In this document: piece after piece, positions 44,541 to 63,401 of the stretch
How the letters are laid out: each line of letters opens with the position of its first letter
How positions within the stretch are numbered: the stretch's first letter is position 1
Assembly: GCA_964467035.1 (NCBI GenBank)
Contig: CAYXNX010000001.1
Location: 51,373-115,372, forward strand
DNA from: Candidatus Woesearchaeota archaeon
GTDB taxonomy: Archaea; Nanobdellota; Nanobdellia; Pacearchaeales; GW2011-AR1
Direction: 5' to 3'
DNA: 64,000 nucleotides
Translations under genes and position numbers: made by a program
Notes under the pieces: model-generated
Told to the model about the DNA's origin: nothing
The model's input: the letters and a program-made list of their open reading frames with translations, nothing else
Database searches by the model: none

Positions 44541-44555
44541 TATGTTCCATTATTT

Positions 44556-44655: not shown

Positions 44656-45065
44656 TTTAATTTATCTTCAATCAATTTAGACAATTTTTTAATTACCAAT
44701 ACAATTTCTTTTTCATAATTTTGAAGAAAAGTTTCATTCACTTTTTTCCCATAATATACAATTCCATTTCTTGATTTTCTTAAAGTATCTATAAGTAATA
44801 ATTGATTGTCATTTAATAAATCATAATTTGTAGAGAAGTATTCTAACAATTTTTTATGACTTAGAGTCTTAAATCCATCTATGTACATAATACTTGTCAA
44901 AAAACCTAGAACAATTTCATAATATTCTTCAACAATTTTATATGGTTTATCTCTAGGCAAAATTTTAATTATATCCAATCTCTCTTTAGAAATTTCGAAC
45001 AATTCTCTAGACCTAATTAAATCTTTCTCTATTTTAAAAATTTCTTCATCCATAAATACCTCCAT
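44652..45065 (-). CDS. HEPN-domain protein
   Basis: RKSRNGIVYYGKKV. Confidence 0.5.
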   Translation of the reverse strand: MEVFMDEEIFKIEKDLIRSRELFEISKERLDIIKILPRDKPYKIVEEYYEIVLGFLTSIMYIDGFKTLSHKKLLEYFSTNYDLLNDNQLLLIDTLRKSRNGIVYYGKKVNETFLQNYEKEIVLVIKKLSKLIEDKLK

Positions 45066-45573
45066 ACAAAGTCAATCCATTTAAAATTTTATTTTTTAAA
45101 GGTTTATTCAATTTATTTAAGTTATTTACATTAATAAAATTTATCTCTCTACCTAAATTATCTTCAAATTTAGAAACATCTAACTTTTTTTTAATATTGG
45201 ATAAAATAAAAATATCAATGTCACTTAACTCTACATCATTGCCTGTTGAATAAGAACCAAAAAGTATTATTGCCTTAGGATTTAAGTTAAATTTAATGGA
45301 TTCAACCAAATCATAGAGAGAATAAAGATTATACAATTTTTTGTAAAAAGTAAATCTATCATTATCTCTATGCGCAACATAACCATCAAAAGGTTTAGAT
45401 TTTTTAATTTTTATCAAACCTTCTTTCAATAAGTCTTGTATATTTTTTCTAACAGAAGTATGAGCCAAATTTATTTTTTTACTAATCTCTCTAATAAAAT
45501 GAATATTTGTTGGTTCTTTAAAAAAAACTTCTAAAACTTTTAGGTAGCTACTTTTTTGTATCATTATAAACAT
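45046..45573 (-). CDS. MNT nucleotidyltransferase with wHTH
   Basis: IILFGSYSTGNDVELSDIDIFIL. Confidence 0.7.
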   Translation of the reverse strand: MFIMIQKSSYLKVLEVFFKEPTNIHFIREISKKINLAHTSVRKNIQDLLKEGLIKIKKSKPFDGYVAHRDNDRFTFYKKLYNLYSLYDLVESIKFNLNPKAIILFGSYSTGNDVELSDIDIFILSNIKKKLDVSKFEDNLGREINFINVNNLNKLNKPLKNKILNGLTLYGGIYG

Positions 45574-45869: not shown

Positions 45870-48722
45870 TTACTCTCCAACTTTAATAACTAATCTTTCA
45901 TTTGAATCATCCCAATAAATCTGCCCATCCCCCATATGCTGAGTCCCAGTAACATTTGTATCTCCATCAACATGCAAATCTTGTTGGGGACTATCTGTTC
46001 CTATTCCCACATTTCCTGAATCATCAATTCTCATTGACTCACTAGCAGAACCTGTATAAAACGCTAATTCATTAAACCCATCAGAAGGACCAAAAACAAT
46101 TCCAGCTCTTTTACTTCCATCTAAATGATTCCAAACACCCTTATCATCTCCTCTATCTACAAAAATATCTCCACCACTTACATCCAGTTTAGCTTGAGGA
46201 CTATCTGTTCCTATTCCTACTTTACCATCTGATTTTATTACCATTCTTGTATCATCTATTGAAACCTCATTGTCATCAGCAGTTCCGTCATTCAAGAAAT
46301 ACAAATCCCCCCTACCGTATGTTCCAGTCCTAGCAAAAGCGATTCCTCCCTTTCCATAATCTGCTGTTGTCGCAGTAAATACAATTCCTGTAGCTGTGTC
46401 ATAACCTGTTGCATAATTTTTTAGTCTTAAGGGATATGTCAATAAACCATCTGATGTGTCAACTATTTCTAATTTTGTACTTGGACTATCTGTTCCTATT
46501 CCTACATTACCTCCATTAAAATAGGAACTTGTACCTGAGCCACTAGTGAGTTTAATCTTTGTTTCACCATTTTGTGACAATTCTAAATATCCTCTATTAT
46601 TATCATTTGAGTATAATTTAGCATAGGTTTCTCCCGTAGACTCATCACTTAAAGTTAAACCATCATTTGCACCTGTTTGAATTTCTAATTTTTCATTAGG
46701 ACTATCTGTTCCTATCCCTACTTTACCCCCATTTGTAACTGTAAATAAAGAATCTGTTTCAGCAGAATCCTTCTTAACTGAAAATAAACCTGTTCCAGAG
46801 TTACTTTCATCCATAACCATATTAATATTTTTAGTAGAATATAAAGTCATATCTTGATCTGAATCAGTAACATCTAATTTATTAACCCCCGATGCTACAC
46901 CTGTTGGAAAAGAAATATCTTGAAAAGTAACTGAAGAAGAAGTTTTAACATCCTGATTCATTCCATAAAGCTCATTTGCTCCTTGCCCTGTATTAACAGT
47001 TGAAAAATTTACATCATCAGTTGTATTCAAAGATTGGTCAAATATATTTCCTGTTATAAATCCTTGATTATCTACATAATTAATTGCTGGTTCTGTTTGA
47101 TTATACAACCATTTCTTAACCCCTTCCCCTTCAACAAAAACATTGCTTCCAAAATAACCATTTCTCCATTGCCAAGTTTCATTACCTACATCAAAAGTAT
47201 TATCCCAATCAATAGGCAATAAACTCCCATTTATATCTAAATTATTAACTCCTAACGAGGTTATGTTATAAGTATAAAGTGCCTGAGCAAAAACCTCTCC
47301 ATCAATTACAGAAACTCCTCCGTTTTGCCAACCCTCATCAAAATTAACCTCTCCGGTAATTTCCATCCCTTCACTTACATTTAAACTATTAAACACAACA
47401 TCATCAGTTGTATTCAAAGATTGGTCAAATATATTTTCTGTTATAGCTCTTGTATCTATTGTGTTGTTTAGTAAAGTTTCATTGAAGTCTAAAGTAGAAC
47501 CATCAAAGGAGTTGTAATTATCTCCTGTTGTCCAATTAAAAACTCCAAAAAAATCCCCATAAAAAGCAGGTGAAGAAATATTATAAATAGCATTAAAATA
47601 ATCTGCTTTTGCTTCTCCTGCAATATCTAAAGCATCTCCAGTCATCTCTCCCTCAACTTTAACATCATCACTAAAATAAAATCTACTATTAGAATAATCA
47701 TATCCTAAAACATTAGTATCTATAAGATAATTTTCAGATTCTGAATTATTTGTATGGAAAAACATTATTGTAGGGTCATCCTCACTTGATACATCACTTA
47801 TTAAAGTTGCAATTTCTCCCAAATTAATAACACTATCTGTACCTCCAAAAGAACCTACATCATTTGAATATGGGTTTAATGTAGGAATATCTAACATCGA
47901 ACCAGGAGAAAAAGCACTATAGTTTAGTGTAAATGTTGAAAGGTTTATATTTGTATTTTCATCTCCTATAAAGACACTTTGATTAGTTGTTGAACCTCTT
48001 TCTGTTACTGATTGTAGTGTGTCAGTTTCTGAAGAAGCTGACCTATCATCTATTGTGGAATTTAATTCTGTTTCGTTTAAATAAATATAATTGGAATCAT
48101 TATAAAGATAAATTCCTCCACCTGATTTTTCTGTGTTAGTATCTTCAGCATCTATATTTCCACATTCCCAATTTCCAGAAGTAGTATTATAAATAGCAAC
48201 TTCTTCATCAGAACAACTAAGTCCTCCAATATATTCGTCAGAAGTATAAAGAACATTTGAACAACTTCCATCTTGTGAACAATTTGTATCTGCTTCAAAG
48301 TTATCCCTTGCATCAATAGTCCTATTTAATTCTGTTTCATTGAAATCTAAATCTATATCATTATCATTTGAATCTAAAGAAATTGAAAGATATTTAGAAA
48401 GTGTTGTTGCTATATTTCTGAATTGCAATGTTGTTGAACTTTTCCCACCAAATACTCCAATACCATCTGTTCCTATATTACTTCCATCATTTGCTTCTCC
48501 ACTTCCCCCGCTCTGATTCACATCATCCCAGTTACCAATACAATCATTCCCAATACAATATCCGCTATCAGAACTTATATTTCCTAAAACTGTCAAATTC
48601 CCTGTATTTCCATAAATAATTGCTAAATCAGTTCCTGATTTATTTTGAAACTTATAATCTCCTGCACTAACAAAACCAACCATACAAATTATCAACAAAA
48701 TCAAAACCAGTTTTTTATTCAT
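45870..48722 (-). CDS. giant secreted protein (950 aa) with repeated VGIGTDSPxxKLxV motifs
   Basis: signal peptide; four GIGTDSP repeats in C-terminal third. Confidence 0.5.
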   Translation of the reverse strand: MNKKLVLILLIICMVGFVSAGDYKFQNKSGTDLAIIYGNTGNLTVLGNISSDSGYCIGNDCIGNWDDVNQSGGSGEANDGSNIGTDGIGVFGGKSSTTLQFRNIATTLSKYLSISLDSNDNDIDLDFNETELNRTIDARDNFEADTNCSQDGSCSNVLYTSDEYIGGLSCSDEEVAIYNTTSGNWECGNIDAEDTNTEKSGGGIYLYNDSNYIYLNETELNSTIDDRSASSETDTLQSVTERGSTTNQSVFIGDENTNINLSTFTLNYSAFSPGSMLDIPTLNPYSNDVGSFGGTDSVINLGEIATLISDVSSEDDPTIMFFHTNNSESENYLIDTNVLGYDYSNSRFYFSDDVKVEGEMTGDALDIAGEAKADYFNAIYNISSPAFYGDFFGVFNWTTGDNYNSFDGSTLDFNETLLNNTIDTRAITENIFDQSLNTTDDVVFNSLNVSEGMEITGEVNFDEGWQNGGVSVIDGEVFAQALYTYNITSLGVNNLDINGSLLPIDWDNTFDVGNETWQWRNGYFGSNVFVEGEGVKKWLYNQTEPAINYVDNQGFITGNIFDQSLNTTDDVNFSTVNTGQGANELYGMNQDVKTSSSVTFQDISFPTGVASGVNKLDVTDSDQDMTLYSTKNINMVMDESNSGTGLFSVKKDSAETDSLFTVTNGGKVGIGTDSPNEKLEIQTGANDGLTLSDESTGETYAKLYSNDNNRGYLELSQNGETKIKLTSGSGTSSYFNGGNVGIGTDSPSTKLEIVDTSDGLLTYPLRLKNYATGYDTATGIVFTATTADYGKGGIAFARTGTYGRGDLYFLNDGTADDNEVSIDDTRMVIKSDGKVGIGTDSPQAKLDVSGGDIFVDRGDDKGVWNHLDGSKRAGIVFGPSDGFNELAFYTGSASESMRIDDSGNVGIGTDSPQQDLHVDGDTNVTGTQHMGDGQIYWDDSNERLVIKVGE

Positions 48723-48723
48723 T

Positions 48724-51573
48724 TTAAATCCTAAAAATCATATCACCTCCTTTTTCATAAATCTCAGCATCACCAATTGATAAATTTTGGGTTATATTAA
48801 CATTTCCCCCAACTTTCAATTTATCTTCCGAACTATTAACCCCAATTCCCACATTATAATCTAAATCATTTGGATGTAATGTATCTTCACTAACATCCCA
48901 CTCACCACTTAAAGTATCATTGCTTCCGTGATAAGCTGTATAATGAACAACAATATCAGAATCTGCTTCAGTTATATTAATATTAAAACCACCATCTGTA
49001 AAATTAACCAACTCTCCTTTTATATATCCGATAGAATCTCCGTTTTGGTCTGCATATCTTATTCCAATACACTCAGAACTATCTCCATATTCTGAAACTG
49101 CATTAATTGAATTACCTGAAGCTCCACTATGCACAACTCCTTGCTCTAAATTTGTTCCTGTCCATTTTGCATATCCGTGCATTGTCCCACCATAGTTATC
49201 AACATTATTTGCATTTTGAGTTCCTTCATCATCAACATCCTCATTCTCAACAGGAGCAACAGCTGTAAAAGTAACTCTATCAGGTTCAAAAGGAACATTT
49301 GAAATTGTCTTAATTCCTTCTTCTTCAATTACAAAACTCCCTGTATCAACTAAATTAACAACAGTTCCATTAACTATAGTTGCATTAACTCCATGACTGG
49401 CAGTAGACAAACATTGCCCTGAATCTAAACAAACATCATTAGTTGCTTCAATATCATCAACATTTAAAGTGCCTGTTGCTTCTTCGTAAAAGAAATCATC
49501 ATCTTCCCCTATATTTTCACTTACAGAACTATCAACAAAAAGAACATTATTATTACTTAAACCAGAAATTGCATTTCTCAAACCAGTATTTGAAGAAATT
49601 TGATTAGTTAAACCTCCTGGCATCAAACCAGATAAAACATCTGTAGCTAATCTTGTCGCTCTTGTGTATTCATTTAATGATAAATGATAATACTCATCAA
49701 TCTCTGGACTTCCTCCTTGCAAATCAGATAAAGTATTATGTGAAATTGAAGAAACAATTGTAACCCACGCACTTCCATCAAAAGTATAACCAACACTTTC
49801 ATCCTCTACAATAACTGCCCAACCAACACTTGGCTCACCATAATCAGTATCAGAATCCATCCAATAACTTCCTGTTTCATTCCATTCAACAATATAATTC
49901 TCTAATCCTGCCCAATCTCCTTCAGCCCCACTTGGCTCTTCTGAAGCACCCTTTGAAATCAGATTATCTCTTCTATTTTCATACCAGTTATTATGATTAT
50001 CCCCATTCCAAGGGTCTGCAACAACACCCAATTCATAAATAGTTCCTTCAAAATAAGCACCTGTTACATAACCATCATGAAAATCCTTTCCATTTCCACC
50101 AGTATAACCAATTCCCCCATTTCCACTATGAGCATTCATTATTTCAGGAGTTTCCTCATTCCCAATTTCAACCCCATTAACATAAAAACTATAATTCCCA
50201 TCACTATCATAATTCATAGAAACATAATAATCTGTATCTGTAGAAATAGAAGTTGAAAAATGATTGCCATCCCAACCCTGTGATTCACTCCACCACCGAG
50301 CATATAAATCTCCTTGATAAATATAAAGCAAAACCCCATTAACATGAGCCCCTTCTGCTAATATGGCCTGTCTTGAAGTTATATCACTTCCAGAATTAAA
50401 AATAACATTATGTGTTCTTTCACTTCCAGAATCTTGCTCATCCCATTGAGATTCCCAAATAGCTAAATCTGCCATACTCCAAGCATCATCATCTCCATCA
50501 AAACTCACCCCATAACCTTTTTCATCACTATCATCAGTTGGACTTCCAAGTTCAGAAATGTAATGATTAGAACTTCCTGATTTATCAATTCCTCCTTCAG
50601 TTAAATTAAAATCATAAAACATAATATAATCATCTGAAAAAACAGCTGCCCCAGATTCAGAATTCACAGCATCAGAATTATTAAAATATAAATAAAATGT
50701 TTCATCACTTGAAGAACTTAAAGTAGGAATCTTAACATAAGCACTTAATACCTGGGCAGATTTGTTAAATCTCTCTATCCTATGTTCAAATTTTTCATCC
50801 CCTGAACTATCTCCAAAAATAATATCATCTCCATTATCTTGAGCTTCACTAAATAAATCATTCGCTCCATTTATTTGAACTTGAATTAAAGCATTTGTTT
50901 CATCTTCATCAACACTAGAACTTTGAATTGTTAAAGGAATTCTTTTATCCCAAGCAAAACTATACCAATCAGCTGAAGGAGAAACAATATATCTATCCCC
51001 ATCACTAGGATTATCAGGAGGAGAGTTTAAATCTTTATCTGAAACAGGAGATTTCCAAGTTGTTGTTGCATTTGTTTGAGGATTAATAGTTTGAGTATTT
51101 AATTGTCCCCCAATTTCTTGAAAAATCCCTTCAGCATTAGTAGAATTATAATAACCCGCATTATCGCTTACACTAATTTCCAAAGCTGAAACATTTCCAA
51201 TACTACTTTGAAAAACCTGCCTTTCCTCGCCCCCAAAATCCAAATCTTCACCATTAACAAACATTTCAATATAATAATACTCTCCATAATTCAAAGACAA
51301 AGGATTTGAATCATTATCTCCTAACAAAATATCATACTTTCCAGAAGAAACAGCCCCATTAAACTCATTTGAAGAGTTATAAATCAAATTACCTCCTGTT
51401 GGAGAATCATAAATTAAAACAGTCAAATTTCCTAAATCAAGATTACTCCCCCCCTCTAAAACATTTCCTTGTAACGCTAACAAATCATCTTTACTAACAA
51501 CAAAAGAAGTTAATAAAGTAACCAAAACTAACAAAAACACCATTGTTAAAAAATATTTAAAAAATTTTTCCAT
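48724..51573 (-). CDS. giant secreted protein (949 aa), Ser/Asp/Gly/Asn-rich
   Basis: signal/TM N-terminus; 1 nt from downstream gene. Confidence 0.5.
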   Translation of the reverse strand: MEKFFKYFLTMVFLLVLVTLLTSFVVSKDDLLALQGNVLEGGSNLDLGNLTVLIYDSPTGGNLIYNSSNEFNGAVSSGKYDILLGDNDSNPLSLNYGEYYYIEMFVNGEDLDFGGEERQVFQSSIGNVSALEISVSDNAGYYNSTNAEGIFQEIGGQLNTQTINPQTNATTTWKSPVSDKDLNSPPDNPSDGDRYIVSPSADWYSFAWDKRIPLTIQSSSVDEDETNALIQVQINGANDLFSEAQDNGDDIIFGDSSGDEKFEHRIERFNKSAQVLSAYVKIPTLSSSSDETFYLYFNNSDAVNSESGAAVFSDDYIMFYDFNLTEGGIDKSGSSNHYISELGSPTDDSDEKGYGVSFDGDDDAWSMADLAIWESQWDEQDSGSERTHNVIFNSGSDITSRQAILAEGAHVNGVLLYIYQGDLYARWWSESQGWDGNHFSTSISTDTDYYVSMNYDSDGNYSFYVNGVEIGNEETPEIMNAHSGNGGIGYTGGNGKDFHDGYVTGAYFEGTIYELGVVADPWNGDNHNNWYENRRDNLISKGASEEPSGAEGDWAGLENYIVEWNETGSYWMDSDTDYGEPSVGWAVIVEDESVGYTFDGSAWVTIVSSISHNTLSDLQGGSPEIDEYYHLSLNEYTRATRLATDVLSGLMPGGLTNQISSNTGLRNAISGLSNNNVLFVDSSVSENIGEDDDFFYEEATGTLNVDDIEATNDVCLDSGQCLSTASHGVNATIVNGTVVNLVDTGSFVIEEEGIKTISNVPFEPDRVTFTAVAPVENEDVDDEGTQNANNVDNYGGTMHGYAKWTGTNLEQGVVHSGASGNSINAVSEYGDSSECIGIRYADQNGDSIGYIKGELVNFTDGGFNINITEADSDIVVHYTAYHGSNDTLSGEWDVSEDTLHPNDLDYNVGIGVNSSEDKLKVGGNVNITQNLSIGDAEIYEKGGDMIFRI

Positions 51574-54799: not shown

Positions 54800-57424
54800 T
54801 TATTTTTTCTTTTTAGATTCTTTACTTTTTAAAAAACTCAAACCAAAACCTATATCTTTCCCTTTGTATGTTTTCAAAGCATAATCAATTTGTTCTCCAC
54901 TCCACCTACTATTTTTTAATTTTTTCTTTATTTCTTCATCACTCAATCTTTTCTTCCTCGCATTTCTTATAAAATAAATCAAATTTTTAAGATTAGATTT
55001 ATCTTTAAATAAATAATCTTCATATTTTTCTTCATACCACTTTTCTAATAAATAATAAATCACCATAGTAACAGCAAGCAAACCCCCAAATGCTAAAAAC
55101 AAAACAAGCAATACACTCATACCCTCCTCATCCGCTTTATTAGTTTGATTTTTTATTAAACTCAAATCAGGAACAAAATACATTTCAGTTTTAACATCAT
55201 TTGCTTCAGCAAAAACAATGTTTGTATCTTGTGAAAGATTAACAAAGATTCCTGTTAAATCCACCATCTCATTCCCAAAAGAATAGTTTCCATTAAAAAC
55301 AATATTATCTCTATCTTTATTAATCATAAAATAACCCTTTTTATTAAAAAATTCTTTAGGAGAAATTAAAACATTAAACTCGCTAAAAACAGGTTCCACC
55401 CTATTTGGATATTGAATTGAATAAACTTTTCGAGTTATCTCAACATTCATATTATCTAAAAACCAAGAAACAATTTTTTCTTTAGTTTTTTCAGTATCAT
55501 TATAATTCCTGTCTCCAAAAATATCACTTACCTTAACTAACTTAATATCATTTGCATTTAAAGTTAATTTTGAAGTTCTAATCCGGGTTGGTTGAATTGA
55601 TAAAGGAATCTCTTTAAAACCAACAAGTTCTTCCATCAGATTAACATAATCTCCATCAGGTGTATCAGAACTTGAAACATATTTTTTATATTGATTTTTA
55701 AAATCACCCAAACTAGTTTCCAAGCTATTAAAATCCAAATCATCTTCAAATAAAGGTTTATAAGAATCAGGAAAATCATTATAAACTTTTTTAATTTCTT
55801 CAAGATTTGAAGTATATTTTTTAAGTGTAGAATTAATTGCTTGTTTAGGAGATTCAATATTTACCTCAAAAACTTTAGAACCAATAATTTCTCCAGAGCT
55901 CTTCAAACTTACTTTAACAGTTTTATTTCCTGTTGTTAAAAAAGTATAAACTTTTTCATTTTTTTCTGTAACTTCTTCCCCCTCCCCAAAATCCCAAACA
56001 TAACTTAAATCAGATTCATTAAAAGAAGGGTCAATAAAAACTTTAAATAAAGTAGGTCTAGCAGCAGAAACAGTTGTTGGAAATATTTGCCTTACAATTC
56101 CCAAAGGTTCTTGAGAAGAATAACCGACTGAAAGATTTTCTTCAGATAAAATCAAATTATCCCCTAAAAAAATATCCACAGAATAATTCCCCTTAGTTTT
56201 AGGCAAATCAAAATCTCCTTTTCTTAAATCAAAAACAGAAAGATTAGTTTTTACAAATGCAGGTGTTTTATCTAATTCAAACAAATAATTTTCTTCTAAA
56301 CCACCTCCACCCTGAACATCATAATCTATTTTCAAATTGCTTAAATCCAAATTTTGGTTTTTACCTGAAATTTTTAAAGGAACAATACATCCTGAAGTAC
56401 AATCTTTTTGATATTTTTCTTGTAAATATTCTTCAATATACTCTTCAATTACAACATTATTTTGTTTAGAAAAAGAGTCAGAATTTAACTTAAAATCACC
56501 CACTTCTGAATATTTTTGGGGAACAGCATTAATCCCATAACTTGCCACACCTTCTGGATTAGTAGTTGGATCCCAATGAAAACCACACCCTCCTCCAAGA
56601 TTAGCCGATAAAGTATAATTCCCATTAACCTCTCCATCTTTTAACGAAACACAAACATAATGCTCTGATTTCTCTTTATTTGTATAATCCATAACACACT
56701 CACTTTTTCCCAAAGAAGGATTTGTCAAATCACAAGTTTCTTTTAAATTTCCTTGATGATAAATATACCCTTTCAAATCACCTCCCTTAAAATCTCCCTT
56801 AATTCTTTCAATATCTGCACTTATTTTAAAAGCTGGTGCAACAGGTAATTCAAATTTATCACAATAAGTTTTTTTATCCAAATCAACTTGATATGGAAAA
56901 TCCCCCTCACTACATAAAGGGCTTAATTCCTCCCCACAATTTTCTTCAATATATTTATTATTAACCCAATTAACATTCCCGTCATCACCCATATCAATAA
57001 CCAACTGATTTTCACAAGAACTCCGAACATCACTCTCCAAACCCAATTCAAAATTATTTAATTCAATCCCTTTACCCAATAACTCAAACCCTACAAGTTT
57101 TTCATCATCAAGCTCAAAAGATTTTGAATTAAACTTTTCCCCCTTTATTTCATAATCCTCTTTACACCCCAAGGGTTCGCAAGTGTAAGTAATATTATTA
57201 GCATCAATAAAATCAACCACATTTATCTTAGAACTATCCCCATTTGAAAAATGAATTTTTAAATTTTCATTAATTCTATTATCAAAACTTATATTCAAAC
57301 TACCTTTTAAAAAATCTTCATCATAATAATTCTCATTAATTTCTCCTGCAAGATTTCCCGACTCTGCACTCACAAAAATAAAAATACATATTGCAAAAAC
57401 AAAAAACAAAGTTTTCAACCCCAT
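54800..57424 (-). CDS. large surface protein (874 aa), signal peptide plus C-terminal TM and basic tail
   Basis: MGLKTLFFVFAICIFIFVSAES; C-terminal TM. Confidence 0.5.
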   Translation of the reverse strand: MGLKTLFFVFAICIFIFVSAESGNLAGEINENYYDEDFLKGSLNISFDNRINENLKIHFSNGDSSKINVVDFIDANNITYTCEPLGCKEDYEIKGEKFNSKSFELDDEKLVGFELLGKGIELNNFELGLESDVRSSCENQLVIDMGDDGNVNWVNNKYIEENCGEELSPLCSEGDFPYQVDLDKKTYCDKFELPVAPAFKISADIERIKGDFKGGDLKGYIYHQGNLKETCDLTNPSLGKSECVMDYTNKEKSEHYVCVSLKDGEVNGNYTLSANLGGGCGFHWDPTTNPEGVASYGINAVPQKYSEVGDFKLNSDSFSKQNNVVIEEYIEEYLQEKYQKDCTSGCIVPLKISGKNQNLDLSNLKIDYDVQGGGGLEENYLFELDKTPAFVKTNLSVFDLRKGDFDLPKTKGNYSVDIFLGDNLILSEENLSVGYSSQEPLGIVRQIFPTTVSAARPTLFKVFIDPSFNESDLSYVWDFGEGEEVTEKNEKVYTFLTTGNKTVKVSLKSSGEIIGSKVFEVNIESPKQAINSTLKKYTSNLEEIKKVYNDFPDSYKPLFEDDLDFNSLETSLGDFKNQYKKYVSSSDTPDGDYVNLMEELVGFKEIPLSIQPTRIRTSKLTLNANDIKLVKVSDIFGDRNYNDTEKTKEKIVSWFLDNMNVEITRKVYSIQYPNRVEPVFSEFNVLISPKEFFNKKGYFMINKDRDNIVFNGNYSFGNEMVDLTGIFVNLSQDTNIVFAEANDVKTEMYFVPDLSLIKNQTNKADEEGMSVLLVLFLAFGGLLAVTMVIYYLLEKWYEEKYEDYLFKDKSNLKNLIYFIRNARKKRLSDEEIKKKLKNSRWSGEQIDYALKTYKGKDIGFGLSFLKSKESKKKK

Positions 57425-57458
57425 ATTTTATATAAAAAAACAGGTTTTATAAATTATT

Positions 57459-59483
57459 CTAAAATTGCTCATTTTTTCTAAAAGTTTTAACAAAGAAAAA
57501 ATAAAAAATCAAAGTTAAAAATCCTGCAATTACAAAATTCACCAAAGAGAAAAACGGCTCAACAGTCATTGGAGGACAAGGAAATTTAACATCCCCACTT
57601 TCGCAATTATTTTCAGAACTTTCACCATCTGAATTCCCATTTTCATCATACCACTCAGCAGTCCAGCTAACAGTATACTCATCTCCTGGCTCAACACACT
57701 CCCCAATTAAATCACCAACCTCAGTTTCACAACTCCCAAATCTATTATACAAATCACTACTAGCAGGAATACAATTATCTATGGTTTCAACCCAGCCCGT
57801 TATGGAATTACAACTACCACTCCCCCAACCACACCCACAACTATAAATCAGACCACATTTAATATGTGTTCCATTTTTACCCCCATCAGGAACTTCCCTA
57901 ACAATCCATTCTTCATCAGAATCATAACTACTATTAGCTTTCCATTCATCACCCACAGGATTAGACTCTTCTTCAAAATCATAACAACTAGGCGGATTGC
58001 CACCTGAACTACTACCATATTCTCTAATCGCTTGAAGAAGTTCTTCACCATCTAAATCTGAAGAATTTGGATGAGCATTATCCTTACAAACAGATCTTTC
58101 ATCAAACTCGCTACAAGCAATTTTTTGGCGAGGACCAGGAGGATCGGGTCCAGAATCAACAACATTTAAAGTAACACTACTCGATAAACCCTCATAAGAT
58201 ACCAATACCGTAGTCTCCCCTTCATCCAAACCTTTAAACACATTATCCCCTGCAGAATTATTTGCAACATTTGGCTTACTACTAGAAAAGGAGGCATCAT
58301 CAGTAACATCCTCCTTCTCTCCGTTTGAATCAATAAGCTTTGCTGTATACCTTTGAATTTCCCCTACCCCAATCCCAGAAGTTGGAGGTTCCAATTCAAT
58401 ATGAGAATCAACAACTACTCCTCTCCCCCCTTCCCAACTTAAAAAAGGATAAGACACCTTATCATCCTCATTAACAATATTCCAAATATAATTCTCATCA
58501 ACACTATCTTCATCCACCTCACCAATACTCCAACTACCAAAAGTATCAACATCCCTCATTTGATTTGTTGATTTTCCTTCACCACCATCACTATCATCCT
58601 GCCCCGATGTATCTTTATCCCAATATGAATTTTCAATTGTTCCCCCACTATTCCACCCAACCAACCCACCAACATAATTATCATCTCCACTCACCTCTCC
58701 AGTTGAATATGATTTTTCAATTGTTCTACTATTATACCCAACCAACCCTCCGCCTATTTTTGTTGAATCTTCAGTAATATCTCTTAACATAACTTCCCCT
58801 TCAGAATACGAATTTTTAATTGTCCCCGAATTTTGATAAACTAATCCTCCTGCGTCTGAAGCATTCACTATACCCTTAAAATAAGAATTCTCAATTGTTC
58901 CAAGATTAACACCAGCCAATCCTCCTGCATCATCAAAACCATTAACAGTTCCTATAAAAGAAGAATTTTTAATTAACCCTCCTCTCCCAATTGTAGAAGC
59001 TATCCCCCCACAACGAGCATTCGATCCGCAAATTATGTCTCCTGTCACATGACAATTTTGAATAATCCCTCTATTTTCTTCGCCAACCTGAACAAGAATA
59101 GCCAATGCTGCCCCATCATAACCACTTTCTGTTTCAACAGACACATTAATTAAATTAAGATTTTTAACTTCTGAATCAGAATTATAAGAAATCATAAGAA
59201 AGAGAGCTTTATTACCATAAGATTTTGCCCCTATTTCCAAGTTAGTTATATTATACCCTTGCCCATCAAAACTTCCATTAAATCTCTGAATTGGATTAAA
59301 ATTTTCCATCTCACTACAATCAATATTATTAACTAATTTATATTCTTCATATTGTCCAAATGTAGTTCTTGAAATACCTTGCAAATCCTGACAATTACTA
59401 ATCTCAGTAACAGCACCCACCCCGCCCACCAAAAAAACACCTACAAAAACTAACAAAAATAAAATCAATAAACTCTTTTTCAT
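57459..59483 (-). CDS. Cys-rich surface protein, paralog B (start at MKKSLL; track's upstream extension is probably not translated)
   Basis: N- and C-termini identical to paralog A; C-terminal PFFSLVNFVIAGFLTLIFYFFFVKTFRKNEQF. Confidence 0.5.
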   Translation of the reverse strand: MKKSLLILFLLVFVGVFLVGGVGAVTEISNCQDLQGISRTTFGQYEEYKLVNNIDCSEMENFNPIQRFNGSFDGQGYNITNLEIGAKSYGNKALFLMISYNSDSEVKNLNLINVSVETESGYDGAALAILVQVGEENRGIIQNCHVTGDIICGSNARCGGIASTIGRGGLIKNSSFIGTVNGFDDAGGLAGVNLGTIENSYFKGIVNASDAGGLVYQNSGTIKNSYSEGEVMLRDITEDSTKIGGGLVGYNSRTIEKSYSTGEVSGDDNYVGGLVGWNSGGTIENSYWDKDTSGQDDSDGGEGKSTNQMRDVDTFGSWSIGEVDEDSVDENYIWNIVNEDDKVSYPFLSWEGGRGVVVDSHIELEPPTSGIGVGEIQRYTAKLIDSNGEKEDVTDDASFSSSKPNVANNSAGDNVFKGLDEGETTVLVSYEGLSSSVTLNVVDSGPDPPGPRQKIACSEFDERSVCKDNAHPNSSDLDGEELLQAIREYGSSSGGNPPSCYDFEEESNPVGDEWKANSSYDSDEEWIVREVPDGGKNGTHIKCGLIYSCGCGWGSGSCNSITGWVETIDNCIPASSDLYNRFGSCETEVGDLIGECVEPGDEYTVSWTAEWYDENGNSDGESSENNCESGDVKFPCPPMTVEPFFSLVNFVIAGFLTLIFYFFFVKTFRKNEQF

Positions 59484-59504
59484 ACTTATCAAGAGGATAA
59501 CATA

Positions 59505-59512
59505 TTTATAAA
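59505..59512 (-). promoter_or_regulatory. TATA box for paralog B
   Basis: tttataaa 22-29 nt upstream of ATG 59483; same at 63047..63054 for paralog A. Confidence 0.35.
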
Positions 59513-59632
59513 TCTTATTAAAATAAATAATTTTATGAAAAATATCCAAAAATAAAAATACATATTCCAAAAACAAAAAACAAAGTTTTCAACCCCATAT
59601 TTTATATAAAAAAACAGGTTTTATAAATTATT

Positions 59633-62600
59633 CTAAAATTGCTCATTTTTTCTAAAAGTTTTAACAAAGAAAAAATAAAAAATCAAAGTTAAAAATCCTG
59701 CAATTACAAAATTCACCAAAGAGAAAAACGGCTCAACAGTCATTGGAGGACAAGGAAATTTAACATCCCCACTTTCGCAATTATTTTCAGAACTTTCACC
59801 ATCTGAATTCCCATTTTCATCATACCACTCAGCAGTCCAGCTAACAGTATACTCATCTCCTGGCTCAACACACTCTCCAACTAAATCACCAACATCAGTT
59901 TCACAATATCCATAATCATCATCAGTGCATCCAGTTATAGTTTCAACCCATTCCCTTTTATTGTTACAATTACCCTCACTCCAATCACACCCACAACTAT
60001 AAATCCGACCACATTTAATATGTGTTCCATTTTTACCCTCATCAGGAACTTCCCTAACAATCCATTTATCCTCATCAGCATAACTACTATTAGCTTGCCA
60101 TTCATCACCCACAGGATTAGACTCTTCTTCAAAAGTATAACAACTAATCGGATTGTCACCTGAACCATAAGTTTCAATATTTGAAAGAAGTTCTTCATCA
60201 TCTAAATCTGAAGAATTTGGATGAGCATTATCATTACAAACCTGATCTCTCCCAAAATCACTACAACCTAAGGATTGGGGAGAAATTCCTCCAACAACCT
60301 CCAAAATAGCACTACTCTCTAAACCTTCATAAAATGCATCTATTATAACTACTCCTTCAACCAAACCTTCAAACTCATTATCCCCCTCAGAATTATTTGC
60401 AACATCTGGATCACTACTAGAAAAGGAGGCCTCATCAATAACATCCTCCTCCTCTCCATTTGAATCAATAAGCTTCGCTGTATAATCTTGAATGCCCCCT
60501 TCATCAATCTCAGAATTTTGAGGTTCCAATTTAATATGAGAATCAACCAATTCATCATCATCTACAATTATTAAATGAGCACCACTGGCAAAACATCCTT
60601 GATAAGTTGCAAGAACTACTGTTTCTCCAACATCTTCTGGCACAACTTTATTATCCCCATTTATTGTTGCAATACTTTGATTCAAAGAATAGATATCTGA
60701 ATTATCAGTAACATCCTCTCCGCTCTCAAAATCTAAAACAGTAAAATTATCCGTTGATTCACTCAAACTTACATTAACACTCATCTCAGGAGGAACAAGA
60801 CCCAAATCATACTGGTTACAATCAGGACCCCCCTCCCCTACTTTCAATCTAACTGAATCACTCTCCGCCTCATCCCCATCATTATAATAAGCTACAATAT
60901 CAACTGTCCCATTACTCACCCCTGTTGCTTCATCCCCATTTATTGAAGCAATTGAACTATTACTACTGTTTATTATTGCATAATCAGTAACAACTTGGCT
61001 AGAACTTCCTGAATAATAAGCAGTAACATTATAAGTTTGAAAATCCCCTACCCCAATTTCTGCCTCATCAGGTTTTAACTCAATGCTAGATAATTCATCA
61101 GTTCCCTTAGGAGTAATTGTCAAATCAGTACAATTCCGATGAAGAACGCCAGAATCATCTGTATAATTCGCGCAAACTACTGTTTCTCCAACACTTACCG
61201 GCACAACTTTATTATCCCCATTTATTGTTGCAATACTTTGATTCAAAGAATAGATATCTGAATCATCTACTACATTATGTGTCCTTATTCCATCAAGAGG
61301 ACCAAGCAAAGACTCATAACCATTAACAGTATATTCCCAATCAGGAATACTACCTAAATCAACACTCCTGCTTTTTGGTTCAATTTCTATATAATCCACA
61401 CTTATCGTGGAAGGACGAGGAGAGCTAGAACAACCACTAGTATCAAACTCACAAGTATCATCACAAGTTAAAGTTCCTCCTGTAAAATCATCAAAATCCG
61501 AACAAGTTTTTCCTCCTAACTCATCCCCATCACAAGCTTCTTTCCCCACATCTAGATGACCATCATTATTACAATCATAATCAGTACATCCACTAGTATC
61601 AAACTCACAAGTATCATCACAAGTTAAAGTTCCTCCCGAAAATCCAAAAGACTCACAATCTTTCCCATCTAATCGATCTCTATCACAAGCCTCTCCTTCA
61701 TCTAAAATACCATTATTATTACATTCCCCCGCTCCACTACCCAACACACGAAATGTCTGACTAGTATTAAAAACCCCCTCATTATCAGAGTTCAAAATTC
61801 CCACAAATGCCCTTCCTTCAATTTCCTCACCCACTTCAATATTGCTAACTTCTTCATCTCCACTATATTCTATCGCGTCAGAACAATCATGAGATTCATA
61901 TTCACAAACCCGTATATCCACATTATCCACATTTTCCGAATCCCATTCAACTTTAGGAATAGATTCTCCTTGCTCAATCTCCTCCAACAGATTATCCCCA
62001 GAATCCAATGCCCTTACATTAAAAATTCTCCCCTCCCCTTCGTCACTCTCATAACATCCACTAGTATCAACTCTACATTCGCTCTCACTTCCAGGACTAT
62101 AACAACCCAACTCTCCCCCATCCCAATCACCAATATCTTCACAAGAATCCATACCCTCCATAAAAATAGGATCCCCATTACTACCAAAATCACAAGATTC
62201 ACCCGCAAAACCAACATCTATATATCCATCTCCACAAGCACGTTCAACACAATCACTAAAAGAACCACCATCATAAACTATTTCTGGAGTTGTCCCATCC
62301 TCACCAGTATCTCCTTCGCCAGGATTCCATTGAACCCAATGATAACCCAAAGTAGGTTCCTGGACATTTGGAGATTGGTCAAAATCCCCATATTCAAGCA
62401 ATTCATTATAACCGTCTTTTCTCTTCAAACTTATATCATCAAAATAACACTCTCCCTCTGGCTTATCATTCCCCGAGAAATCATCTTCTCTTCTTCCATC
62501 TAACCTTAATCTTACTTGATATTCTCCCCCCTTGCCCTCAGGAATTCTTATTTCAGTACCATACTCTCTCCAATTTATCAAAATTCCCTCTACACCATTC

Positions 62601-63025
62601 TGAGCCCCTTCAACCCTTTCTGTCCATCCAGGAGAACCATCGTCATAATAATCAAGATAATTATCACTGTAAACATCCATTAAACAAGAACCCTTTTCTA
62701 AATTAGCTTTAATATTGCCTTTTAAAATATAAGTTCCTTTCCCCAAATTAACATCTTGGCTAACAACATTGTAATCATTTAAACCCTCACTACCCAATTT
62801 TAAAACCTTGCCAGGATGAAAATAAAAACACTCCTCACTCTCTTCACAATCATCATCATCAAAACATGGATCTGTGTCAGGAAACTCACTATCCGAATCA
62901 TCATCTCCCGAAAGCTGAGGCTCCTCCCCCCAAGTCCAAGGATTCCACCAAGCTCCTTGAACACTCCCCGCCAAAAACACACCTACAAAAACTAACAAAA
63001 ATAAAATCAATAAACTCTTTTTCAT
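59633..63025 (-). CDS. Cys-rich giant surface protein, paralog A (about 1130 aa)
   Basis: shares first ~20 and last ~100 residues with paralog B. Confidence 0.5.
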   Translation of the reverse strand: MKKSLLILFLLVFVGVFLAGSVQGAWWNPWTWGEEPQLSGDDDSDSEFPDTDPCFDDDDCEESEECFYFHPGKVLKLGSEGLNDYNVVSQDVNLGKGTYILKGNIKANLEKGSCLMDVYSDNYLDYYDDGSPGWTERVEGAQNGVEGILINWREYGTEIRIPEGKGGEYQVRLRLDGRREDDFSGNDKPEGECYFDDISLKRKDGYNELLEYGDFDQSPNVQEPTLGYHWVQWNPGEGDTGEDGTTPEIVYDGGSFSDCVERACGDGYIDVGFAGESCDFGSNGDPIFMEGMDSCEDIGDWDGGELGCYSPGSESECRVDTSGCYESDEGEGRIFNVRALDSGDNLLEEIEQGESIPKVEWDSENVDNVDIRVCEYESHDCSDAIEYSGDEEVSNIEVGEEIEGRAFVGILNSDNEGVFNTSQTFRVLGSGAGECNNNGILDEGEACDRDRLDGKDCESFGFSGGTLTCDDTCEFDTSGCTDYDCNNDGHLDVGKEACDGDELGGKTCSDFDDFTGGTLTCDDTCEFDTSGCSSSPRPSTISVDYIEIEPKSRSVDLGSIPDWEYTVNGYESLLGPLDGIRTHNVVDDSDIYSLNQSIATINGDNKVVPVSVGETVVCANYTDDSGVLHRNCTDLTITPKGTDELSSIELKPDEAEIGVGDFQTYNVTAYYSGSSSQVVTDYAIINSSNSSIASINGDEATGVSNGTVDIVAYYNDGDEAESDSVRLKVGEGGPDCNQYDLGLVPPEMSVNVSLSESTDNFTVLDFESGEDVTDNSDIYSLNQSIATINGDNKVVPEDVGETVVLATYQGCFASGAHLIIVDDDELVDSHIKLEPQNSEIDEGGIQDYTAKLIDSNGEEEDVIDEASFSSSDPDVANNSEGDNEFEGLVEGVVIIDAFYEGLESSAILEVVGGISPQSLGCSDFGRDQVCNDNAHPNSSDLDDEELLSNIETYGSGDNPISCYTFEEESNPVGDEWQANSSYADEDKWIVREVPDEGKNGTHIKCGRIYSCGCDWSEGNCNNKREWVETITGCTDDDYGYCETDVGDLVGECVEPGDEYTVSWTAEWYDENGNSDGESSENNCESGDVKFPCPPMTVEPFFSLVNFVIAGFLTLIFYFFFVKTFRKNEQF

Positions 63026-63104
63026 ACTTATCAAGAGATTTAATTATTTATAAATCTTATTAAAATAAAAGTAAAATTTATAATCTCCCAAAATAAATAA
63101 TTTT

Positions 63105-63401
63105 ATGAAAAATATCCAAAAAACACTTTTAACAACTTTAATAATTTCCTTAATTACAATCCTTTTAGCAATCTTTGTCCAGTTTAATGCAATTTCAAAA
63201 ATAACTCAATGCAGTTATTTAGACCCAATCATCATCGACATTTTGGCATTTTCAGCTGCTTTATTTTTAATAATCGAAGGTTTTGCAAGAATTTTTGAAC
63301 ATCCCAAAGCAACACTAAAAAGACAATTCACAAGAATAATTAGAATATCTTTTGGTTTTACAATTCTAACTTTGCACATAATTCAGTTTATCCATAAATG
63401 A
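63105..63401 (+). CDS. small membrane protein
   Basis: 98 aa, 3 TM. Confidence 0.4.
   Translation: MKNIQKTLLTTLIISLITILLAIFVQFNAISKITQCSYLDPIIIDILAFSAALFLIIEGFARIFEHPKATLKRQFTRIIRISFGFTILTLHIIQFIHK

What the first reader, a model, noticed from the sequence alone, without database searches (positions are those of the whole stretch)
57365..63120. Tandem paralogous giant Cys-rich surface proteins with identical termini and duplicated flanks
Paralogs B (57459..59483) and A (59633..63025) share an identical signal peptide MKKSLLILFLLVFVGVFL, identical promoter TATA regions, and an identical last ~100 codons plus ~60 nt downstream. Between them lies an orphan copy of the start of the next gene (MGLKTLFFVF.., 59535..59595) and of the divergent plus-strand gene start (MKNIQK*, 59537..). 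The middle domains differ completely. Conserved ends with variable cores suggest recombination-driven surface variation. The C-terminus PFFSLVNFVIAGFLTLIFYFFFVKTFRKNEQF resembles a PGF-CTERM/archaeosortase-type sorting signal, with PFF in place of PGF.
Basis: seen in the sequence. Interest (0 to 1): 0.55.

Follow-up and report, generated by a model that had tools for sequence, protein, structure and literature searches.

The report
Tandem surface genes sharing one anchor
Two neighbouring genes of a small-genome (Pacearchaeota-like) archaeon carry different cell-surface "heads" on the same cysteine-rich stalk and membrane anchor, were joined side by side by a recent recombination accident, and expose an undescribed anchor module whose DNA stays uniform among the copies within each genome.

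Summary
Genes B (57459-59483) and A (59633-63025), both on the minus strand, lie in a head-to-tail duplication (57373-59552 / 59547-63122). The junction is a 6-nt microhomology (CAAAAA). It left orphan starts of both flanking genes.

The copies are mosaic:
- 328 nt at the 3' end are 99.7% identical.
- The next ~720 nt are ~85% identical.
- The N-terminal heads are unrelated (GLUG repeats versus Cys-rich repeats plus Ig-like domains).
- The 18-residue signal peptide is identical in protein but has 5 synonymous differences.

The shared C-terminus is not private to A and B. A profile search found 46 distant relatives, where named all Candidatus Pacearchaeota. Each ends in the same module: a domain with 8 invariant Cys, then CP-x5-[LVI]PFF, a membrane helix with an invariant Tyr exactly 17 residues after the first Phe, and a basic end. 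No Pfam or NCBIfam model matches it, including PGF-CTERM.

In three genomes, paralogs share near-identical tails, synonymous sites included, while tails differ between genomes. This indicates DNA-level homogenisation of a 3' cassette.

Whether the tail is a permanent anchor or a cleaved sorting signal is open. No archaeosortase was seen, but only 64 kb of this genome could be read.

The parts
54800..57424 (-). Gene C, 874 aa. It has a signal peptide, a weak PKD-like region, one transmembrane helix and a ~100-aa cytoplasmic tail. It is the conserved downstream neighbour of the variable slot.
   Evidence: ORF. Weak PKD matches. Homologs follow a PFF-module gene in L001 (41% identity), L006 (32%) and L005 (25%).
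57373..57700 (-). 3' cassette, copy 1. It covers the last 80 codons of B, the stop, the 34-nt spacer and the first 52 nt of gene C.
   Evidence: 99.7% identical over 328 nt to 59547-59874. Zero differences in the last 80 codons.
57459..59483 (-). Gene B, 674 aa. Order: signal peptide, GLUG-repeat head, Ig-like domain, Cys-rich stalk, PFF/TM/basic tail.
   Evidence: Pfam Glug PF07581, E 1.4e-12 and 5e-14 on the head alone. More than 3400 GLUG homologs cover only the head.
57462..57557 (-). B tail, PFFSLVNFVIAGFLTLIFYFFFVKTFRKNEQF: the PFF motif, a predicted TM helix and a basic end.
   Evidence: Coordinates. Conservation statistics. The AlphaFold model of the identical A tail gives a helix at residues 123-148 of the modelled 150.
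57462..58415 (-). Region of B homologous to A (aa 357-674): Ig-like domain plus Cys-rich module plus tail.
   Evidence: blastp 72% over 318 aligned columns, E 7e-147. Nucleotide alignment.
59430..59483 (-). B signal peptide, 18 aa, identical in protein to that of A.
   Evidence: There are 5 synonymous differences between the copies.
59503..59512 (-). TATA-like element of B (TTTATAAATA on the gene strand, -29..-20 from the ATG).
   Evidence: Read. The same element sits at the same spacing before A. Promoter function is inferred.
59535..59555 (+). Orphan copy of the start of the 98-aa plus-strand gene (MKNIQK*).
   Evidence: 59520-59552 is 100% identical to 63090-63122. Translation.
59547..59552 (.). 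Duplication junction: CAAAAA, shared by both parental edges (6-nt microhomology).
   Evidence: Position-by-position comparison.
59533..59598 (-). Orphan copy of the start of gene C, now a 21-codon ORF, MGLKTLFFVFGICIFIFGYFS*. Gene C's upstream spacer is copied with it (59599-59632).
59547..59874 (-). 3' cassette, copy 2. It covers the last 80 codons of A, the stop, the spacer and the orphan gene C start.
59633..63025 (-). Gene A, 1130 aa. Order: signal peptide, unassigned ~230-aa N-terminal domain, Cys-rich repeats (aa 261-330 and 434-533), Ig-like (Big_2) repeats, shared Ig-like domain, Cys-rich stalk, PFF/TM/basic tail.
   Evidence: Big_2 PF02368 at aa 647-722, 24.3 bits against a cut-off of 22.8. 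Homologs hit only through Cys-rich repeats of DUF4215/MopE-type proteins and cover at most 39% of A. Internal repeats D4 and D10.
59636..59731 (-). A tail, identical to the B tail.
59636..60550 (-). Region of A homologous to B (aa 826-1130).
62972..63025 (-). A signal peptide.
63045..63054 (-). TATA-like element of A.
   Evidence: Read.
63105..63401 (+). 98-aa small membrane protein gene, divergent from A. Its first 18 nt and 15 nt upstream form the right edge of the duplicated unit.
   Evidence: A 67%-identical ortholog sits next to RtcB in L010.

Best explanation
**What A and B are.** A and B are secreted, C-terminally membrane-anchored surface proteins of a Pacearchaeota-like DPANN archaeon. 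Each has a different adhesin-type head: GLUG repeats in B, Cys-rich repeats plus Ig-like domains in A. Both heads sit on one shared membrane-proximal module. That module is a small disulfide-rich beta domain with 8 invariant Cys. It is followed directly by CP-x5-[LVI]PFF, a transmembrane helix of fixed length with an invariant Tyr, and a basic C-terminus. The module defines an uncurated family.

**How the anchor most likely works (inferred).** I read the tail as a permanent type-I anchor. The FF and Y residues would sit at the two membrane interfaces, and a conserved Asn in the helix could mediate helix-helix contacts.

**How the tandem pair arose (shown).** One illegitimate recombination at a 6-nt microhomology (CAAAAA) joined the start of the upstream 98-aa gene to the start of downstream gene C. 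This duplicated the slot.

**Timing (inferred).** The junction-proximal flanks are about 1% diverged, while the cores have dS of about 0.2-0.4 or are unrelated. The simplest history is therefore an unequal crossover between two chromosomes that already carried different alleles of this hypervariable slot. The alternative is a recent duplication followed by exchange of one core through the conserved ends.

**Family-wide behaviour (shown).** The 3' end (tail plus a little downstream DNA) acts as a recombination or gene-conversion cassette kept uniform among paralogs within a genome. This lets heads be exchanged or added on a constant anchor.
For: **Duplication anatomy**
- Identity steps from 99.7% (328 nt) to ~85% at about 57700.
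- The last 80 codons have 0 differences, against dS 0.18-0.21 just upstream and 0.40 in the signal peptide.

**Family**
- A profile of the A/B C-terminus found 46 further proteins (E 3e-23 to 8e-4), 84-1474 aa long. Nearly all match only the last ~130 profile positions, and 45 of the 46 match at their own C-terminus.
- Over the 46 aligned sequences (A, B and 44 relatives), 8 Cys, F120 and Y137 are invariant and F121 is present in 45 of 46. P119 occurs in 35 and N125 in 36. The F-to-Y spacing is identical in all 46.
- The AlphaFold model has mean pLDDT 80, with a beta domain followed by a helix at 123-148.
- No Pfam or NCBIfam family matches. No solved-structure match reaches E<0.1.

**Synteny**
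- L001 (Candidatus Pacearchaeota) has one gene with a different head and the same module, followed by gene C (41% identity), the GTPase and OapB, as in the window.
- L006, L013 and L005 show 1-3 module genes in the same island.

**Concerted tails**
- P0240, a 303-aa family member recorded on a contig of the same length (149,292 bp) as A and B, shares 21 of 24 tail residues with A/B. Its Cys-rich domain is only about 31-35% identical to theirs. Its closest relative from another genome, P0252, shares only 9 of 24.
- Within L013 and L006, tail third-codon-position identity is 0.73-0.88, against 0.46-0.64 in the adjacent domain. Between genomes it is 0.42-0.61.
Against: - No reads were available, so the junction and the perfect identity of the repeat are not validated. 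An assembler can collapse near-identical repeats and exaggerate identity.
- P0240's DNA could not be retrieved.
- The history 'two alleles joined' cannot be separated from 'older duplication plus two conversion tracts that run to the junction'.
- dN/dS of about 1.1-1.35 in the diverged shared region was not tested for significance.
- The permanent-anchor reading is inference. The motif-TM-basic layout at the extreme C-terminus, several paralogs per genome and a near-invariant short motif at the outer membrane face are also the hallmarks of sortase-type signals.
- There is no expression or localisation evidence.
Confidence: 0.6

Rival explanations
1. The PFF-TM-basic tail is a cleavable sorting signal, in effect a 'PFF-CTERM'. 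An archaeosortase-like or still unknown transpeptidase would recognise PFF, remove the TM helix and basic end, and attach the Cys-rich stalk to a lipid or envelope component, as ArtA does for PGF-CTERM proteins. Within-genome uniformity of tails would then reflect co-adaptation to one enzyme.
For: - The tripartite layout sits at the extreme C-terminus in 45 of the 46 relatives found, as in A and B.
- FF is essentially invariant and P occurs in 35 of 46, exactly at the outer end of the predicted helix.
- There are at least 3 paralogs per genome.
- Tails are genome-specific.
- From the literature, ArtA substrates were long mistaken for TM-anchored proteins (PMC6098224).
Against: - No CTERM model matches the tail. 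PGF-CTERM gave no hit at all. Loki- and Heimdall-CTERM matched only 1-2 of 46 members at E 0.1-0.4.
- The tail never occurs without its Cys-rich domain. This held for the window, the 16 related loci and 236 unrelated GLUG or Cys-repeat homologs. It therefore does not behave as a portable signal.
- An invariant Tyr deep in the helix and a fixed helix length suit a retained helix.
- Tail similarity within genomes extends to synonymous sites and, in L013, 36 nt past the stop codon. Enzyme co-adaptation does not explain that.
- No PF09721-type gene lies in the window or the loci.
- The 2018 review read here places archaeosortases in a subset of Euryarchaeota.
Confidence: 0.25
2. The duplication is old and happened in situ. 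A and B diverged in place by domain gain and loss. The near-identical flanks come from two later gene-conversion tracts that each ran to the end of homology, not from joining two pre-diverged alleles.
For: - Family-wide evidence shows that 3' tails are repeatedly homogenised among paralogs.
- A conversion tract necessarily stops where homology stops, which is the junction.
Against: - It needs two independent tracts, each abutting the junction: 328 nt on one side, and the 33 identical nt plus the promoter on the other.
- The signal-peptide DNA between them keeps dS 0.40.
- The orphan fragments are non-functional yet about 99% identical.
Confidence: 0.25
3. The tandem pair is an assembly chimera. 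Two strain alleles of one locus were concatenated by the assembler.
For: - The source is a metagenome-type contig.
- The two copies share flanks, as strain bubbles do.
Against: - The junction joins two unrelated sequences across only 6 shared bases, far below any assembly k-mer. It creates truncated copies of both flanking genes in the arrangement expected of a real tandem duplication.
- Clusters of several module genes are normal in related contigs from independent projects.
Confidence: 0.07
4. The conserved ends reflect only purifying selection on protein sequence, or targeted hypermutation of the core such as a diversity-generating retroelement.
For: The signal peptide is conserved in protein with synonymous changes.
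Against: - The 3' tract has no synonymous or non-coding differences.
- Substitutions in the ~85%-identical region show no adenine bias: 70 transitions and 66 transversions, spread over all four bases.
- No reverse transcriptase was seen among the window proteins scanned.
Confidence: 0.02

Closest known systems
[quoted passage not shown]
   Same: Both are Sec-secreted surface proteins that end in a short motif, a hydrophobic helix and a basic cluster at the extreme C-terminus. Both occur as several paralogs per genome. In both, the motif begins with Pro and contains an aromatic residue at the outer membrane face.
   Different: - The motif here is PFF, not PGF, and the PGF-CTERM model does not match.
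- A structured Cys-rich domain abuts the motif. From general knowledge, PGF-CTERM proteins usually have a Ser/Thr-rich linker there.
- The tail is not seen on unrelated proteins.
- No ArtA homolog was found in the sequence available.
- The lineage is DPANN, not Euryarchaeota.
PEP-CTERM/exosortase and other curated CTERM sorting domains (Loki-CTERM, Heimdall-CTERM, LPXTG)
   Same: The tripartite layout is the same. Signals resemble each other within a genome.
   Different: Only chance-level matches were found: 1-2 of 46 members at E 0.1-0.4. Sequence uniformity here extends to synonymous sites, which points to DNA exchange, not enzyme recognition.
Giardia variant-specific surface proteins (an analogy, not homology; from general knowledge and the abstracts listed)
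   Same: Both are Cys-rich extracellular proteins with highly variable N-terminal parts on a conserved C-terminal membrane anchor with a short conserved cytoplasmic end. Both form multigene families.
   Different: Giardia is a eukaryote with a different motif (CRGKA) and expression switching among about 200 genes. Here there are only 2-4 genes per genome, each with its own promoter, and no evidence of switching.
Gene-conversion or cassette-based surface variation in bacteria, such as Neisseria pilE/pilS and Borrelia vlsE (from general knowledge)
   Same: Conserved end segments flank variable cores and serve as substrates for homologous recombination. Here this is shown by the stepwise identity profile and third-position identity.
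   Different: No silent cassette array exists. Only two copies of each end are present in 64 kb. All copies look like complete genes.
GLUG-motif (PF07581) surface proteins and DUF4215/MopE-type Cys-rich repeat proteins
   Same: B's head is a clear GLUG-repeat region. A's repeats retrieve proteins annotated as DUF4215, cysteine-rich repeat or MopE-related.
   Different: None of the 236 homologs retrieved carries the Cys-rich stalk or the PFF tail. The heads are borrowed, widespread domains, whereas the anchor is lineage-specific.

Membership tests
PGF-CTERM (archaeosortase A sorting domain) | The C-terminal domain matches the curated PGF-CTERM model with a PGF signature. | tested here: not met
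   The tail alone gave 0 NCBIfam families at E<=10. PGF-CTERM is not among the 23 families listed at E<=1 for the 46 members. The motif is PFF.
PGF-CTERM (archaeosortase A sorting domain) | An archaeosortase A gene is present in the same genome. | not testable with these tools
   Only 64 kb of the 149-kb contig was readable, and none of the rest of the genome. No exosortase or archaeosortase Pfam hit was found among the window's multi-pass membrane proteins or in the gene tables of the related loci.
Generic sortase-type C-terminal sorting signal (exosortase/archaeosortase class) | Tripartite layout: short signature motif, TM helix and basic cluster at the extreme C-terminus. | tested here: met
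   All 47 tails listed show it.
Generic sortase-type C-terminal sorting signal (exosortase/archaeosortase class) | The signal is portable, meaning it is found on otherwise unrelated proteins of the same genome. | tested here: not met
   A tail-only HMM hit only ORFs that also match the Cys-rich-domain HMM. This held for the window plus 16 loci and for 291 retrieved proteins. The sample is limited to about 64 kb of this genome.
Generic sortase-type C-terminal sorting signal (exosortase/archaeosortase class) | Several substrates per genome. | tested here: met
   A, B and P0240 are on one contig. L006 and L013 each have three.
Generic sortase-type C-terminal sorting signal (exosortase/archaeosortase class) | Proteolytic removal of the TM segment and covalent attachment of the mature protein. 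| not testable with these tools
   This needs proteomics or biochemistry.
Tandem duplication by microhomology-mediated illegitimate recombination | Head-to-tail units, a junction at a short shared sequence, and truncated copies of both flanking genes at the junction. | tested here: met
GLUG-motif proteins (PF07581), gene B | Pfam Glug match above the gathering score. | tested here: met
   47.6 bits against a cut-off of 20.5, E 1.4e-12. Three stretches on the head alone.
Bacterial Ig-like group 2 (PF02368), gene A | Pfam Big_2 match above the gathering score. | tested here: met
   24.3 bits against a cut-off of 22.8 on the segment aa 540-913. No hit was reported on the full-length protein, so this is borderline.
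DUF4215 / Myxococcus-type Cys-rich repeat (PF13948), gene A | Pfam model match. | tested here: inconclusive
   No Pfam hit at E<=1 on the repeat segments. However, phmmer retrieves many PF13948-annotated proteins at 45-55% identity over 8-9% of A.
Diversity-generating retroelement target | Adenine-specific differences between two repeat copies, and a nearby reverse transcriptase. | tested here: not met
   No adenine bias among the 136 mismatches. No reverse transcriptase among the scanned window proteins.

The most novel reading that the evidence does not exclude
The Cys-rich stalk plus PFF-TM-basic tail would be a new, lineage-specific protein-sorting and anchoring system of Pacearchaeota-type DPANN archaea, in effect a 'PFF-CTERM', served by a processing enzyme not yet recognised. 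Its 3' cassette would double as a dedicated recombination handle, letting these host-dependent cells swap or add adhesin heads on a constant anchor. That would be a recombination-based surface-variation system in archaea.
Probability: 0.2. Interest if true: 0.8.

Novelty: new variant of a known kind. Interest (0 to 1): 0.55.

Why it matters
DPANN archaea are thought to live attached to other cells, yet the proteins that make and vary that contact are almost all 'hypothetical'. Single-cell work on Nanoarchaeota found the highest non-synonymous SNP densities in hypothetical surface proteins (PMC6142677).

This locus offers three concrete things:
- A searchable signature for one family of Pacearchaeota surface proteins: 8 Cys, CP-x5-[LVI]PFF-x3-N, then Y 17 residues after the first F, then a basic end.
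- A conserved genomic island in which these genes sit: Archease, RtcB, module genes, gene C, GTPase, OapB. In several genomes a type IV pilus-like operon lies alongside.
- Direct sequence evidence that heads are exchanged or added on a constant anchor by recombination at conserved ends.

If the tail proves to be processed, it would extend sortase-like sorting to DPANN. If it is a permanent anchor, the genome-specific uniformity of a membrane helix still needs an explanation, whether by gene conversion or by a shared membrane partner such as gene C.

Tried and rejected
- **Word-index protein search with the C-terminal module alone.** It returned nothing, not even A or B themselves, so one search was lost. 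The exhaustive representative search did the job instead.
- **Exact-sequence contig look-ups for A, B and P0240.** None is on record, so the rest of the 149-kb source contig, and P0240's DNA, could not be read.
- **The search for related loci with the 46-sequence alignment.** The source genome itself was not recovered.
- **Known sorting domains.** No match in NCBIfam or Pfam.
- **Diversity-generating retroelement.** Rejected because the mismatches show no adenine bias.
- **Silent cassette array.** Rejected because each end cassette has only two copies in the window.
- **Bacterial-type promoter and terminator scan.** Uninformative for an archaeon.
- **Literature searches for 'PFF-CTERM' and for archaeosortase in Pacearchaeota or other DPANN.** Nothing relevant. 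Haft et al. 2012 was not held.
- **Homology between the adjacent ~950-aa proteins at 45870-51573.** They share only a 33-residue C-terminal motif and are not a second A/B-like pair.


Full report
**1. Setting**

The window is AT-rich, about 30% G+C. It is archaeal: it carries an intron-containing tRNA at 20322-20443 (ARAGORN did not call it) and an OapB origin-associated protein. Exact copies of A and B exist in the protein collection, from NCBI only, on a contig of 149,292 bp. Related loci that carry names are all Candidatus Pacearchaeota. I therefore treat the organism as a Pacearchaeota-like DPANN archaeon. That is an inference from synteny and homology.

**2. The observation**

Three genes lie in a row on the minus strand, and one lies on the plus strand:

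| Gene | Coordinates | Strand | Length |
|---|---|---|---|
| A | 59633-63025 | - | 1130 aa |
| B | 57459-59483 | - | 674 aa |
| C | 54800-57424 | - | 874 aa |
| 98-aa gene | 63105-63401 | + | 98 aa, divergent from A |

The repeat search and alignments give a head-to-tail duplication with units 57373-59552 and 59547-63122. Read along the gene strand, the two units compare as follows:

| Segment | Comparison |
|---|---|
| Far upstream edge, including the first 18 nt of the 98-aa gene | 33 nt, 100% identical |
| Next upstream | 28-nt indel |
| Segment holding the same TATA-like element at -29..-20 | 24 nt identical |
| Next | 8-nt substituted block |
| Next | 12 nt identical |
| Signal peptide | 18 aa identical, but 5 synonymous differences, dS 0.40 |
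| Heads | No detectable similarity (B about 330 aa, A about 800 aa) |
| Next ~720 nt | ~85% identical (72% aa) |
| Final 328 nt | One mismatch |

The final 328 nt cover the last 80 codons, the stop codon, the 34-nt spacer and the first 52 nt of gene C. The step from ~85% to ~100% falls at about 57700 and is abrupt.

The junction is CAAAAA at 59547-59552, and this hexamer is present at both parental edges. Two relics flank it. One is MKNIQK* on the plus strand at 59535-59555. The other is a 21-codon remnant of gene C on the minus strand at 59533-59598. The corrections are 80 identical codons, not ~100, 86 nt downstream, not ~60, and a homologous C-terminal third in place of 'completely different' middles.

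**3. What the proteins are**

B's head is a GLUG-repeat region (Pfam PF07581). More than 3400 database proteins match it, and apart from A they cover only this head.

A contains Cys-rich repeats that retrieve DUF4215, 'cysteine-rich repeat' and MopE-related proteins. It also has Ig-like Big_2 domains and internal repeats of 90-93% nt identity. No database protein other than A and B themselves covers more than 39% of A.

Both proteins have a typical N-terminal signal peptide and a C-terminal hydrophobic helix with a basic end. They are therefore predicted type-I surface proteins (inference).

**4. The shared C-terminus is a family**

An exhaustive profile search with the Cys-rich region plus tail of A and B (alignment A1) found 46 further cluster representatives among 1.84 billion proteins, with E from 3e-23 to 8e-4. 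They are 84-1474 aa long. Nearly all match only the last ~130 profile positions, and 45 of the 46 match at their own extreme C-terminus.

Their tails and the alignment of 46 sequences (A, B and 44 relatives) give this signature:

- Eight invariant Cys.
- SWTA-like W in more than 90%.
- C-x2-G (G in 44 of 46).
- [FL]PCP.
- Five variable residues.
- [LVI] in 41 of 46.
- P in 35 of 46.
- F in 46 of 46.
- F in 45 of 46.
- x3, then N in 36 of 46.
- A hydrophobic stretch with an invariant Y exactly 17 residues after the first F in all 46 sequences.
- A run of K/R at the end.

AlphaFold2 with this alignment gives a confident model, mean pLDDT 80. It has a small beta domain at residues 27-111 and one long helix at 123-148 that begins right after PFF. 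Foldseek found no solved structure at E<0.1. No Pfam or NCBIfam model matches the module. In particular, PGF-CTERM gave no hit, and Loki-CTERM, Heimdall-CTERM and LPXTG appeared only as chance-level hits in 1-2 members. No paper in the searched library mentions 'PFF-CTERM'.

**5. Genomic context in relatives**

L001 (Candidatus Pacearchaeota) is syntenic with the window. It has one module-bearing gene, with a third, different head and an in-frame TAA. Next come a gene C ortholog (41% identity), the same GTPase and OapB.

Other contigs extend this to a conserved island. In several genomes it begins with a type IV pilus-like T2SSE/T2SSF operon. Then come:

1. Archease.
2. A large secreted protein.
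3. A ~240-310-aa module protein.
4. Sometimes another module protein.
5. RtcB.
6. A large module protein.
7. A gene C-like protein.
8. The GTPase.
9. OapB.

The window's 98-aa protein has a 67%-identical ortholog right after RtcB in L010. The number of module genes per island is 1-3, and their heads differ: beta-helix/NosD, Cys-rich repeats, GLUG, Ig-like. The slot occupied by A and B is thus a place where heads vary between relatives. The tandem A-B pair is a derived state.

**6. Tails are homogenised within genomes**

P0240 (303 aa) belongs to the small subfamily. It is recorded from NCBI only, on a contig of the same length as that of A and B. Synteny places it just beyond the window's right end.

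| Comparison | Cys-rich domain identity | Tail residues shared |
|---|---|---|
| P0240 versus A/B | about 31-35% | 21 of 24 |
| P0240 versus P0252, its closest relative from another genome (43% identical overall) | 40% | 9 of 24 |
| P0242 versus P0267 | 31% | 24 of 26 |
| All pairs, median | 28% | 9 of 24 |

P0242 versus P0267 is the other extreme outlier. P0267 sits on one contig with two more module genes, one of which is P0242-like (1223 aa).

Codon-level comparison gives the following third-position identities:

| Pairs | Tail | Adjacent Cys-rich domain |
|---|---|---|
| Within-genome paralogs in L013 and L006 | 0.73-0.88 | 0.46-0.64 |
| Between genomes | 0.42-0.61 | 0.46-0.59 |

In L013 the similarity (87% over 167 nt) runs 36 nt past the stop codon. 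This is DNA-level concerted evolution of a 3' cassette, seen independently in three genomes. The 328-nt identity between A and B is its most recent instance.

**7. How the tandem pair arose**

Shown: a single illegitimate join at a 6-nt microhomology, and flanks about 1% diverged against cores with dS 0.2-0.4 or no similarity.

Inferred: the cores diverged long before the junction formed. The most economical history is an unequal crossover between two chromosomes, from sister genome copies or related strains, that carried different alleles of the slot. A recent duplication followed by replacement of one core through the conserved promoter and tail segments gives the same product. An old in-situ duplication with two conversion tracts that each reach the junction remains possible (rival, 0.25).

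An assembly chimera is unlikely, because six shared bases cannot seed an assembly join and the truncated flanking genes are arranged as a true duplication predicts. Without reads, however, it cannot be excluded (0.07).

Diversity-generating retroelement mutagenesis is rejected. Selection-only conservation is rejected for the 3' end. In the diverged shared region dN/dS is about 1.1-1.35. This fits relaxed or diversifying selection on the exposed part but was not tested for significance.

**8. Anchor or sorting signal?**

The tail has the architecture of sortase-type signals, and there are several copies per genome.

Three tests speak against membership in the known classes, or at least fail to support it:
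- No curated model matches.
- The tail is never separated from its Cys-rich domain in any sequence I could examine.
- No exosortase or archaeosortase gene lies in the window or the related loci.

Two features also suit a retained transmembrane helix:
- The invariant aromatic residues sit at a fixed 17-residue distance, which fits the two membrane interfaces of one helix.
- A conserved Asn lies within the helix. From general knowledge, Asn promotes helix-helix association.

I therefore favour a permanent anchor, possibly pairing with a conserved partner such as gene C. I keep the processed-signal model at about 0.25. The decisive test, a whole-genome search for a co-occurring processing enzyme plus proteomics, was outside these tools.

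**9. Verdict**

The duplication itself is an ordinary kind of event, though unusually informative here.

The added value is threefold:
- An uncurated, lineage-restricted C-terminal stalk-plus-anchor module.
- Its conserved genomic island.
- Replicated evidence that its 3' end is kept uniform within genomes while heads vary.

I rate this a new variant of a known kind (C-terminal anchor or sorting modules, and recombination-based surface variation), with interest 0.55.

Noticed in passing
L001:1046-2710: The single module gene at the syntenic slot of the Pacearchaeota contig is interrupted by an in-frame TAA at 2201-2203. The same frame continues into the Cys-rich module. It could be a pseudogene, a sequencing error or read-through.
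   Followed up: partly
window:59599-59632 and 59533-59598: The duplication also copied gene C's upstream spacer, with its TATA-like run, in front of the 21-codon orphan ORF. A second copy of gene C's putative promoter therefore now points into B's promoter and gene B.
   Followed up: no
window:60602-60706 vs 61163-61267; 61427-61486 vs 61583-61642: Gene A contains internal direct repeats of 90% and 93% nt identity, in an Ig-like segment and a Cys-rich repeat. These are further substrates for intragenic recombination.
   Followed up: no
window:45870-48722 and 48724-51573: Two adjacent ~950-aa secreted proteins. One has DUF2341 and DUF2793 matches. They are unrelated apart from a 33-residue C-terminal motif (NVGIG..S....L.V.G).
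   Followed up: partly
window:35902-37314 and 25705-26547: Two other secreted proteins end in a TM helix plus a basic tail, but without PFF (...PLSGGWGLTGLAALVGGSGALALKKRNRRRDYR, with bacterial TSP3 repeats; ...SPTLALIIGILIPIIIYFVYNWNKKRKNKR). This genome therefore uses more than one kind of C-terminal anchor.
   Followed up: partly
window:9971-19329: A type I restriction-modification system (HsdM, HsdS, HsdR by Pfam) with a Shedu SduA_C-like protein inserted between M and S.
   Followed up: partly
window:31662-34813, 39592-40630, 43537-45573: Several small gene pairs look like nucleotidyltransferase/HEPN-type toxin-antitoxin modules. One member was confirmed as NTP_transf_2. A DDE transposase lies at 41860-42732.
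   Followed up: partly
window:23568-24749: A secreted protein with a eukaryote-type C-type lectin domain (PF00059, E 1e-16), which is unusual in an archaeon.
   Followed up: no
window:20322-20443: Rfam calls a 122-nt tRNA here that ARAGORN missed. It is presumably an intron-containing archaeal tRNA.
   Followed up: no
L002:2474-10876, L007:2546-10711, L009, L005: In several relatives the small module protein lies a few genes downstream of a type IV pilus-like operon (T2SSE plus two T2SSF) and Archease. It abuts or overlaps the gene before it, which suggests co-translation with a partner protein.
   Followed up: partly
window:28595-29497: A protein with a C-terminal thioredoxin-fold domain and a low-complexity N-terminus. 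It is a possible disulfide oxidoreductase in a genome rich in Cys-rich secreted proteins.
   Followed up: no
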